DNA of 46,666 bases from a virus (Duplodnaviria; Heunggongvirae; Uroviricota; Caudoviricetes), in IMG/VR virus record IMGVR_UViG_2880395615_000009, positions 1 through 46,666 of that record. One strand, written 5' to 3'. The position numbers and the translations under genes are program-made. The notes under the pieces were generated by a model that was not told the DNA's origin, did no database searches, and saw nothing but the letters and a program-made list of their open reading frames with translations. Positions 41,906-42,088 of this stretch are shown here, piece after piece; the first letter of the stretch is position 1; the number at the start of each line of letters is the position of its first letter.

Positions 41906-42088
41906 AAAGTGAATTTTGTGATGCGGTGAATGCGGCTCAGCGCACGCGGAACAGTTAAAAAGGCCAGTTGACTTCCGTATTGGTTCTTATGGGTGGGTTC
42001 TCTGTATCCGGCGTTAATTGTTAACTGGTTAACGTCACCTGGAGGCACCAGGCACCGCATCACAAAATTCATTGTTGAGGACGCGATA

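What the first reader, a model, noticed from the sequence alone, without database searches (positions are those of the whole stretch)
41911..42070. Perfect 16-bp inverted repeat pair spanning the dicF-dicB intergenic region and ending 18 nt before the dicB start codon
GAATTTTGTGATGCGG (41911..41926) and its exact reverse complement CCGCATCACAAAATTC (42055..42070) are separated by 128 bp that include a TTGACT motif and two GTTAAC palindromes. In a read-through transcript this would form a long-range 16-bp duplex next to the dicB Shine-Dalgarno sequence. That is a plausible RNase III processing site or translational control element for dicB; DicF maturation from the polycistronic RNA is known to involve RNase III and RNase E.
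Basis: partly seen in the sequence, partly recalled or inferred. Interest (0 to 1): 0.5.

Follow-up and report, generated by a model that had tools for sequence, protein, structure and literature searches.

The report
RNase III stem enclosing prophage RNA
The inverted repeat is real and forms a 21-base-pair RNA helix that closes a conserved prophage RNA domain just upstream of dicB; it matches an RNase III cleavage site mapped in E. coli K-12 in 1990, so the finding is largely already explained.

Summary
The repeat is confirmed and is longer than reported: 19 perfect pairs, or 21 with one G·U (41908-41928 / 42053-42073). About 5e-5 such repeats are expected by chance in the window. It acts at the RNA level. 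Across 31 homologues from several enterobacterial genera the arms change sequence but stay paired: 10 of 21 pairs show compensatory double changes, and K-12 has two G·U pairs. The helix is the closing stem (P1) of a ~145-nt multi-helix RNA on the dicB sense strand. That RNA is a divergent relative of the prophage sRNA family STnc100/PasD, and a full-score copy lies at 31339-31505 (minus strand).

The RNase III idea is supported, and for the K-12 orthologue it is already published. RNase III processing gives a 72-nt DicF whose 3' end falls in the middle of the 5' arm. This leaves 9 bp of P1, at the upper end of the 6-9 bp closing stem of stand-alone family members. The same long-stem element precedes kil/kilR and other small early-left genes.

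The TTGACT is not conserved. The GTTAAC sites are simply part of hairpin P4. The upstream sRNA in this window is not canonical DicF. The new inference, still unproven, is that RNase III excises an STnc100-class RNA from the operon.

The parts
41860..41905 (+). Intrinsic terminator of the upstream sRNA slot (the position held by DicF in Qin and KilS in Rac): stem 41860-41869 / 41890-41899, then C plus a U-run at 41901-41905
   Evidence: Inverted repeat I10; terminator-like hit; the same GGCGG...CCGCCC-UUUUU-AAAG junction in 21 of 35 long-stem copies; no Rfam DicF hit
41908..41928 (+).
   Evidence: alignment columns 8-28
41919..41920 (+). Inferred RNase III cut in the 5' arm, equivalent to the 3' end of the 72-nt DicF in K-12; uncertainty up to about +5 nt
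   Evidence: Literature combined with a coordinate transfer; not measured in this strain
41932..41947 (+). P2 hairpin (GCGGC / GC-CGC) with the conserved loop CUnnGCG
   Evidence: columns 33-37 / 43-48; invariant, so it gives no covariation evidence
41948..42009 (+). P3 domain: a 3-bp base (41948-41950 / 42007-42009) enclosing a variable insert that holds the non-conserved TTGACT (41968-41973)
   Evidence: K-12 lacks the TTGACT segment
42010..42036 (+). P4 hairpin (9 bp); the loop GUUAACU and the 3' strand hold the two GTTAAC sites
   Evidence: columns 119-127 / 137-145; 6 of 9 pairs with compensatory changes
42038..42052 (+). P5 hairpin CCUGG-AGGCA-CCAGG (5-bp stem, 5-nt loop)
   Evidence: U-A in 16 and G-C in 14 sequences at the middle pair
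42053..42073 (+). P1 3' arm (21 nt)
   Evidence: columns 162-183
42063..42064 (+). Inferred partner RNase III cut, from the 2-nt 3' overhang rule; it would give a dicB mRNA 5' end 25 nt before the AUG
   Evidence: Inference and the RNase III geometry described in PMC6212723
42077..42081 (+). dicB Shine-Dalgarno sequence GAGGA, starting 3 nt after the helix base
   Evidence: sequence
42089..42277 (+). dicB (62 aa)
31339..31505 (-). Paralogous stand-alone STnc100 copy with a short (8-bp) P1, followed by an intrinsic terminator and upstream of a nanS-p-like esterase gene
   Evidence: Rfam 99.6 bits; R1 52.4 bits; sequence

Best explanation
The two arms are the 5' and 3' strands of a 21-bp RNA helix (P1). 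P1 closes a ~145-nt, five-helix RNA domain transcribed as part of the prophage early-left operon, between an sRNA terminator and dicB. The domain is a divergent, operon-embedded member of the STnc100/PasD class of prophage RNAs. Its unusually long P1 is a substrate for host RNase III. A staggered cut near the middle of the helix (about 41919|41920 and 42063|42064) would have three effects: it separates the upstream sRNA, now carrying a 19-nt 3' extension, from the downstream message; it releases the structured domain with a 9-bp P1, the normal form of stand-alone family members; and it gives the dicB mRNA a new 5' end about 25 nt before the AUG, next to the Shine-Dalgarno sequence. What is shown: the helix, its covariation, the family relationship and the conserved gene context. 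What comes from published K-12 work: RNase III cleavage in the 5' arm. What is inferred: the partner cut, the release of a stable RNA, and any effect on dicB translation or stability.
For: The helix exists and dominates the ensemble. In 31 long-stem homologues 97% of cells are paired, against 34-43% in the slid controls. Ten of the 21 P1 pairs carry compensatory double changes, and 0 of 500 shuffles reach the observed covariation. K-12 has U.G and G.U pairs where the window has C-G and G-C, which keeps the RNA pairing but not DNA pairing. The sense strand scores 168 bits with model R1 against 39 bits for the antisense. For family membership, Rfam STnc100 matches at 34 bits, E 1.4e-5, with the arms aligned to the model's closing helix. 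Reciprocally, R1 finds the window's true STnc100 copy at 52 bits, E 8.5e-15. [quoted passage not shown] The two pairs between the inferred staggered cuts include a G-C (27 of 31 sequences), as in the in-vivo rule. The helix length of 21-22 bp equals the ~22-bp RNase III substrate valley. Coverage over the element at 1649470 is 0 and 0 reads in wild type against 26 in delta-rnc. The dicA-dicF-dicB intergenic regions are listed as RNase III substrates. For the excision model, short-stem family members have a 6-9 bp P1, and their homology to R1 ends at model positions 20-24 / 145-149, where the cut lies. Of the long-stem copies, 83% are followed by an SD and ORF, 3% by a terminator and 0% have a promoter-like site. 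For stand-alone class-C copies the figures are 6% ORF, 52% terminator and 33% promoter-like. After the cut, the outer duplex is weak (-6.9 kcal/mol) and the inner P1 is stable (-16.6 kcal/mol).
Against: There are no cleavage data for this strain or this sRNA variant. The 72-nt end is known to me only through secondary citations, because the 1990 paper is not held. Its placement depends on the annotated 53-nt coordinates and could shift by up to about 5 nt towards the junction. The Gordon et al. signal is 26 reads at a resolution of +/-400 bp, and in Rac their peak lies 5' of kilS rather than in the helix. RNase III antideterminants could not be scored because the matrix is not held. No excised ~135-nt RNA has been reported in the searchable literature. 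The upstream terminator is strong, so read-through transcripts may be rare. The long-stem set was chosen for having long arms, which inflates the percentage paired but does not affect the diversity of compensating sequences.
Confidence: 0.75

Rival explanations
1. The long helix is only a structural clamp or insulator. It ensures that an embedded functional RNA domain folds independently of the flanking mRNA, and RNase III cleavage is incidental or absent in this prophage.
For: P1 encloses a conserved multi-helix core. The 5' arm is transiently mispaired before the 3' arm is made, so a very stable P1 would help refolding. Fourteen of the 35 long-stem copies have no upstream sRNA to process.
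Against: Family members embedded upstream of KilS-like sRNAs manage with a 9-bp P1. The conserved length of 21-22 bp and the invariant UUUG:CAAA block beside the mapped cut fit a ruler-type dsRNA enzyme. RNase III cleavage in this arm is reported for K-12.
Confidence: 0.1
2. The helix acts mainly as a cleavage-independent translational control element. A stable 21-bp stem ending 3 nt before the Shine-Dalgarno sequence limits 30S access, keeping toxic DicB or Kil synthesis low.
For: The helix base lies 15 nt (dicB) or 18 nt (kil) before the start codon, and 16-46 nt elsewhere. The downstream genes are often division inhibitors. Modelled SD accessibility is at most 0.1 for four of five SD bases in the uncut RNA, against 0.5-0.8 after the cut.
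Against: The SD and AUG are not part of the helix. The spacing to the start codon is not fixed. The accessibility model is weak, and the AUG is predicted to be paired in both forms. This explanation does not account for the conserved ~22-bp length.
Confidence: 0.1
3. The enclosed domain is a put- or nut-like RNA that modifies RNA polymerase for processive antitermination of the early-left operon, with P1 as its base.
For: It lies in an N-less lambdoid early-left operon that contains an intrinsic terminator. P4 and P5 are adjacent hairpins separated by one nucleotide, and P5 has boxB-like geometry (5-bp stem, 5-nt loop). Expression of kil is known to depend on read-through.
Against: Neither Rfam STnc100 nor R1 matches HK022, and there is no visible similarity to putL. 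The element lies downstream of the sRNA terminator, not upstream of it. Stand-alone copies are followed by their own terminators, at which they evidently stop, and accumulate as sRNAs.
Confidence: 0.04
4. It is a DNA-level inverted repeat: an operator, a recombination site, the terminal repeats of a small mobile insert, or a chance match.
For: There is a perfect 19-bp inverted repeat in this strain. The interior carries a strain-specific insert.
Against: G.U wobble pairs replace Watson-Crick pairs in K-12 and other copies. Arm sequences are completely different in other genera yet still pair. There is a strong strand asymmetry. The interior is a conserved structured RNA, and its length varies by non-multiples of 3. 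The chance expectation is 5e-5.
Confidence: 0.01

Closest known systems
RNase III site 3' of DicF in the E. coli K-12 Qin dicBF operon (Faubladier, Cam & Bouche 1990; 72-nt DicF)
   Same: It is an orthologous element at the same position, between the sRNA terminator and dicB. The arms are the same apart from two positions, and the core is the same (168.5 vs 168.0 bits with R1). The published cut falls within the 5' arm.
   Different: It sits in a different prophage (O55:H7, next to rspB). The upstream sRNA body is not DicF. The window has a perfect helix where K-12 has two G.U pairs, and it carries an extra insert in P3. I could not check whether the 1990 paper drew the long-range helix.
STnc100 (Rfam RF02076) / PasD / EcOnc27 prophage sRNAs
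   Same: They share the architecture (P1, P2 with a CUnnGCG loop, variable P3, P4, P5) and the boxes GGUGAAU and CACCnGGAGGCACCnGGCACC. The covariance-model matches are reciprocal.
   Different: The match is below Rfam's gathering score (34 vs 47 bits). P2 has a different sequence class (GCGGCU... rather than CCCCC...). The element is embedded in an operon with no promoter or terminator of its own, and its P1 is 21 bp rather than 6-9 bp.
kilS-kilR leader of the Rac prophage and kil leaders of Stx and Rac-type phages
   Same: The same long-stem element lies between an sRNA terminator and a small FtsZ-inhibitor gene (165.5 bits with R1).
   Different: The 3' arm has a one-nucleotide bulge after 10 bp. 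The K-12 Rac copy has a core mutation (GGCACC to GACACC). No RNase III mapping inside the helix is known to me.
RNase III processing stems that flank 16S and 23S rRNA; metY-nusA; the phage lambda N leader; T7 early mRNA sites
   Same: They work alike: a long-range or local ~20-bp helix in a polycistronic transcript is cut by RNase III to release a structured RNA and/or reset the 5' end of the downstream message (established knowledge).
   Different: There is no sequence relationship. Here the released RNA has no known function, and its release has not been shown.
HK022 put antiterminator RNAs
   Same: Both are cis-encoded structured RNAs in an early operon of an N-less lambdoid phage.
   Different: There is no sequence or model similarity. 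The position relative to promoter and terminators differs.

Membership tests
E. coli RNase III intramolecular substrate | A nearly continuous dsRNA helix of about two turns (~20-22 bp) | tested here: met
   21 bp with no mismatch (19 Watson-Crick, then one G.U and one A-U); pair probabilities 0.9-1.0. The length is conserved at 21-22 bp in other genera.
E. coli RNase III intramolecular substrate | rnc-dependent RNA ends inside the helix | not testable with these tools
   Known only for the K-12 orthologue and only by citation: the 72-nt DicF, placed at arm position 12-17. There is a low-count delta-rnc-specific coverage signal at 1649470.
E. coli RNase III intramolecular substrate | The two positions between the staggered cuts are base-paired, with at least one G-C or C-G pair (Altuvia 2018) | tested here: met
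   For the inferred cuts these pairs are columns 18:173 (G-C in 27 of 31 sequences) and 19:172 (U-A, C-G or A-U). This depends on the inferred cut position.
E. coli RNase III intramolecular substrate | No antideterminant base pairs in the proximal and distal boxes | not tested
   The scoring matrix is not held.
Rfam RF02076 STnc100 | Score at or above the gathering threshold (47 bits) | tested here: not met
   34.0 bits, E 1.4e-5. The late copy in the same window scores 99.6 bits.
Rfam RF02076 STnc100 | Shared secondary structure and conserved boxes (homology) | tested here: met
   The arms align to the model's closing helix. R1, built only from long-stem copies, finds bona fide STnc100 at 52 bits and about 100 further family members.
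Rfam RF02076 STnc100 | A stand-alone sRNA gene with its own terminator | tested here: not met
   The long-stem class has 0% promoter-like sites, 3% terminators and 83% SD+ORF directly downstream.
DicF sRNA (for the RNA upstream of the repeat) | A match to the Rfam DicF model | tested here: not met
   There is no DicF hit in the window at the gathering score or at E<=10. This variant occurs in 203 of 5426 E. coli genomes and is unannotated in all 8 records listed.
HK022 put antiterminator RNA | Sequence or structure similarity to putL or putR | tested here: not met
   No Rfam STnc100 hit and no R1 hit in the HK022 early region. putL was read directly.
DNA-level inverted repeat (mobile-element ends or a protein-binding palindrome) | Complementarity maintained at the DNA level; no strand bias | tested here: not met
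   There are G.U pairs in K-12 and others. Sense versus antisense model scores are 168 vs 39 bits.

The most novel reading that the evidence does not exclude
dicBF/kil-type early-left operons encode a third, unrecognised product. This would be a ~135-nt STnc100-class structured RNA that RNase III excises from the spacer between the sRNA (DicF, KilS or a variant) and the division-inhibitor gene. The long P1 would be an 'excision stem' that converts an operon-embedded copy into the same mature form (P1 of ~9 bp) that stand-alone STnc100/PasD genes produce by transcription. The same cut would also set the 5' end of the dicB/kil mRNA, and hence its translation or stability.
Probability: 0.3. Interest if true: 0.55.

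Novelty: new member of a known kind. Interest (0 to 1): 0.33.

Why it matters
DicB and Kil are toxic division inhibitors whose expression affects phage resistance, stress survival and, in EHEC, virulence regulation. Knowing that their leaders carry a conserved RNase III-cut stem explains how the sRNA and the protein-coding part of one transcript are uncoupled. The wider point is that this stem encloses a member of the very abundant but functionally orphan STnc100/PasD RNA class. That gives the class a second biogenesis route and a defined genetic context, namely early-left operons next to host-takeover genes. It also gives a simple experimental handle: Northern blots in wild type versus rnc, and arm or compensatory mutants. 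The result also warns that 'DicF' annotations in O55/O157-type prophages can hide a different sRNA in the same slot.

Tried and rejected
(1) put-like antiterminator. I located HK022 pL-putL from the primers in PMC9378689. Scanning the HK022 early region with Rfam and with R1 found nothing, so I rejected homology. King 2011 (PMC3187212) is not held.

(2) Internal promoter at TTGACT. There is no sigma-70-like site on the + strand, and the motif is absent from K-12 and most homologues. Ragunathan 2023 found no internal promoter in K-12.

(3) The RNase III cut described by Ragunathan 2023. That cut makes the 5' end of a 190-nt precursor upstream of dicF and is not at this helix. Folding that region gave no significant structure (z -1.3).

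(4) Published RNase III maps. Altuvia 2018 has no supplement held. Gordon 2017 gives only low-count, low-resolution support.

(5) Faubladier & Bouche 1994 (PMC205167) is not held.

(6) My first gapless helix measurement missed the kil-type copies because of their one-nucleotide bulge. I corrected this with constrained folding.

(7) Coding potential of the interior. A 109-aa minus-strand ORF and an N-terminal extension of dicB exist mechanically. However, element lengths differ by non-multiples of 3 (109-132 nt), so I rejected a coding role.

Full report
OBSERVATION. The perfect complementarity is 19 nt (41910-41928 / 42053-42071). As RNA the helix runs for 21 bp (41908-41928 / 42053-42073), adding one G.U and one A-U pair. 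A perfect 19-nt inverted repeat with a loop of up to 300 nt is expected about 5e-5 times in a window of this size. The window is identical to a lambdoid prophage of E. coli O55:H7 RM12579 integrated next to rspB. On the + strand it carries a LexA-family repressor gene, a DUF1391 gene, the repeat region, dicB, a DUF1482 gene, exonuclease, xis and int. The helix base (42073) is 15 nt from the AUG and 3 nt from the GAGGA Shine-Dalgarno sequence.

IT IS AN RNA HELIX, NOT A DNA SITE. The K-12 Qin orthologue differs at two adjacent arm positions, in a way that gives U.G and G.U pairs...GAUGUGGUG / CACUGCAUC.... I collected copies from viral, genome and metagenome collections with two core patterns. 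This gave 272 unique elements and 32 distinct long-arm pairs. Arms as different as GUGAAUUUUGUGAUGCGGUG, AGCAGGUUUUAAGGUGUGGUG and AACAGGCUUUGUAAUGUGGUG each pair with their own partner. On an alignment of 31 long-stem copies (A1), RNAalifold independently predicted the 21-bp helix. The explicit pair count gave 97% of cells paired, against 34-43% when the partners are slid. Nineteen pairs carry double changes, and 0 of 500 shuffles reach the observed covariation. Within P1, 10 of 21 pairs have compensatory changes. The copies were selected for having long arms, which inflates the percentage paired, but the diversity of compensating sequences cannot come from that selection. A covariance model built from A1 scores the dicB-sense strand at 168 bits and the antisense strand at 39 bits.

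WHAT THE HELIX ENCLOSES. The 124 nt between the arms are not a spacer. Rfam matches 41898-42121 to STnc100 (RF02076) at 34 bits (below the gathering score of 47; E 1.4e-5), with the two arms aligned to that model's closing helix. A full-score STnc100 copy lies at 31339-31505 on the minus strand. Reciprocally, model R1, built only from long-stem copies, finds that copy at 52 bits (E 8.5e-15) and about 100 further family members. The domain has P1, a small P2 hairpin with a conserved CUnnGCG loop, a variable P3, P4 and P5. P3, P4 and P5 all show compensatory changes. The TTGACT lies in a P3 insert that K-12 and most homologues lack, and it has no -10 partner. In the literature I could search, STnc100/PasD/EcOnc27 are abundant, Hfq-associated prophage RNAs found near Q, stx2 and nanS-p, with no established function.

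CONSERVED CONTEXT. The same long-stem element precedes kilR in K-12 Rac, where the annotated sRNA KilS occupies the DicF position. It also precedes kil in Rac-SA53 and in Stx phage 75/02. A shorter-stem (9-bp) version of the element lies before terB in the ban operon of phage P7. In other genera the long-stem element precedes assorted small ORFs. Long-stem copies have no promoter-like site (0 of 35) and almost never a terminator (1 of 35), but 29 of 35 are followed by an SD and ORF within 70 nt. Stand-alone class-C copies show 33% promoter-like sites, 52% terminators and 6% ORFs. Fourteen of the 35 long-stem copies lack an upstream sRNA terminator. The long stem therefore belongs to the element and the downstream gene, not specifically to sRNA 3'-end formation.

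RNase III. Ragunathan et al. 2023 describe an RNase III cut that creates the 5' end of a 190-nt DicF precursor. That cut is upstream of dicF and is not this helix. However, two sources citing Faubladier et al. [quoted passage not shown] A review also lists the dicA-dicF-dicB intergenic regions among classical RNase III substrates. With the annotated dicF coordinates, the 72-nt end is L001 position 2454. That is position 12 of the 21-nt 5' arm (2443-2463), leaving 9 bp on the junction side. If the 53-nt species really ends in the U-run, the cut shifts by up to 5 nt but stays inside the arm. Transferred to the window, the cut is about 41919|41920. The 2-nt 3'-overhang geometry then puts the partner cut at about 42063|42064 (inference). 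The two pairs between these cuts include a G-C in 27 of 31 sequences, matching the in-vivo rule of Altuvia et al. The 21-22 bp length also matches the ~22-bp substrate valley of the enzyme. Gordon et al. 2017 list position 1649470, which is inside the element, with 0 and 0 reads in wild type and 26 in delta-rnc. This is supportive, but the count is low and the resolution is +/-400 bp. In Rac their peak is 5' of kilS rather than in the helix.

FOLDING. As a proxy for co-transcriptional folding I folded growing prefixes of the transcript. The 5' arm first pairs with 41938-41955. Once about 10 nt of the 3' arm exist, the minimum-energy structure switches to P1, and in the full ensemble P1 pairs have probabilities of 0.9-1.0. 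After a mid-helix cut the outer duplex is weak (-6.9 kcal/mol), so the extended sRNA and the dicB mRNA should separate. The inner 9-bp P1 is stable (-16.6 kcal/mol). Modelled accessibility of the SD rises from at most 0.1 to 0.5-0.8 for most of its bases after the cut, which is weak evidence.

THE NEW INFERENCE. In short-stem family members P1 pairing is at least 92% for the six innermost pairs. It is 73%, 54% and 30% for the seventh to ninth pairs, and 9-17% beyond that. Their local alignments to R1 end at model positions 20-24 / 145-149. The mapped RNase III cut lies between positions 19 and 20. Cleavage would therefore trim the embedded copy to the family's normal mature form, much as RNase III releases rRNAs from their long flanking stems. 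This suggests that the spacer encodes a third product of dicBF/kil-type operons. No paper in the searchable library links STnc100/PasD with RNase III or dicB, and none reports an RNA from the spacer. I could not read the 1990 paper to see how much of the helix it described.

REJECTED ALTERNATIVES. Homology to the HK022 put RNAs is not supported. A DNA-level role is contradicted by the wobble pairs, the covariation and the strand asymmetry. A chance match is excluded. A purely steric translational role and a pure folding-clamp role remain possible as contributions, but neither explains the conserved ~22-bp length or the published cleavage.

VERDICT. The RNase III interpretation is supported and, for the K-12 orthologue, already in the literature. 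This locus is a new member of a known kind. The added value is the covariation proof, the recognition that the stem closes an STnc100-class domain conserved in front of dicB, kil and other small early-left genes, and the testable excision model.

Noticed in passing
window 41826-41907 (+): The RNA in the 'DicF slot' is not DicF: there is no Rfam DicF hit even at E<=10. Only the terminator hairpin and its flanks resemble DicF and KilS, and the body is different. This variant occurs in 203 of 5426 complete E. coli genomes and is unannotated in all 8 records listed, whereas 4728 genomes match the 701-nt query (41600-42300) spanning the sRNA slot, the element and dicB. The sRNA slot therefore looks like an exchangeable cassette upstream of a constant element.
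   Followed up: partly
window 31339-31505 (-), with a terminator at about 31285-31310: A full-score STnc100 copy with an 8-bp closing helix. It is preceded by a promoter-like TTGATT...TAAAAA and followed by an intrinsic terminator. It lies about 770 nt downstream of a Q-like gene (32277-33098, minus strand) and upstream of a 645-aa nanS-p-like esterase gene.
   Followed up: partly
L029 375-987; also L084 4382-5480, L018, L221, L183, L163, L245: Tandem arrays of 3-6 stand-alone STnc100-class genes with a period of about 253 nt. Each unit holds the element, about 25 nt of spacer and its own intrinsic terminator. They occur in prophages of non-E. coli Enterobacteriaceae and in metagenomic contigs.
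   Followed up: partly
L008 3499-3656 (-) and many similar viral contigs: A class-G copy with only a 9-bp closing helix lies directly upstream of a KilS-like sequence (UGCUGUGUGUAGUC...). Some phages therefore carry an element copy before the sRNA rather than after it.
   Followed up: no
L140, L258, L332, L419 (about 20-60 nt upstream of the long-stem element): A conserved motif, ACCACCGAGCCUGAAGUGG-N-AAAAGACAGGC, precedes the long-stem element in several non-E. coli genera that have no sRNA terminator there. Its function is unknown.
   Followed up: no
window 41025-41540 (-): A 171-aa hypothetical gene (WP_000559928.1) lies antisense to the early-left operon, between the DUF1391 gene and the sRNA slot, where K-12 Qin has ydfB and ydfC. 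Read-through to dicB must cross it.
   Followed up: no
L248 2744-2910 (-) (K-12 Rac, kilS-kilR spacer): The K-12 Rac copy carries a substitution in the otherwise invariant 3' box (GGCACC to GACACC) that breaks the outermost P5 pair. This may be decay in a cryptic prophage.
   Followed up: no
window 35126-35301 (-): A sok antitoxin RNA (hok/sok module) in the nin region of the prophage.
   Followed up: no
alignment A1 columns 15-18 / 173-176 (window 41915-41918 / 42063-42066): An invariant UUUG:CAAA block in the middle of an otherwise freely covarying helix, immediately outside the inferred RNase III cut. It may be a sequence determinant for the enzyme or for another factor.
   Followed up: partly
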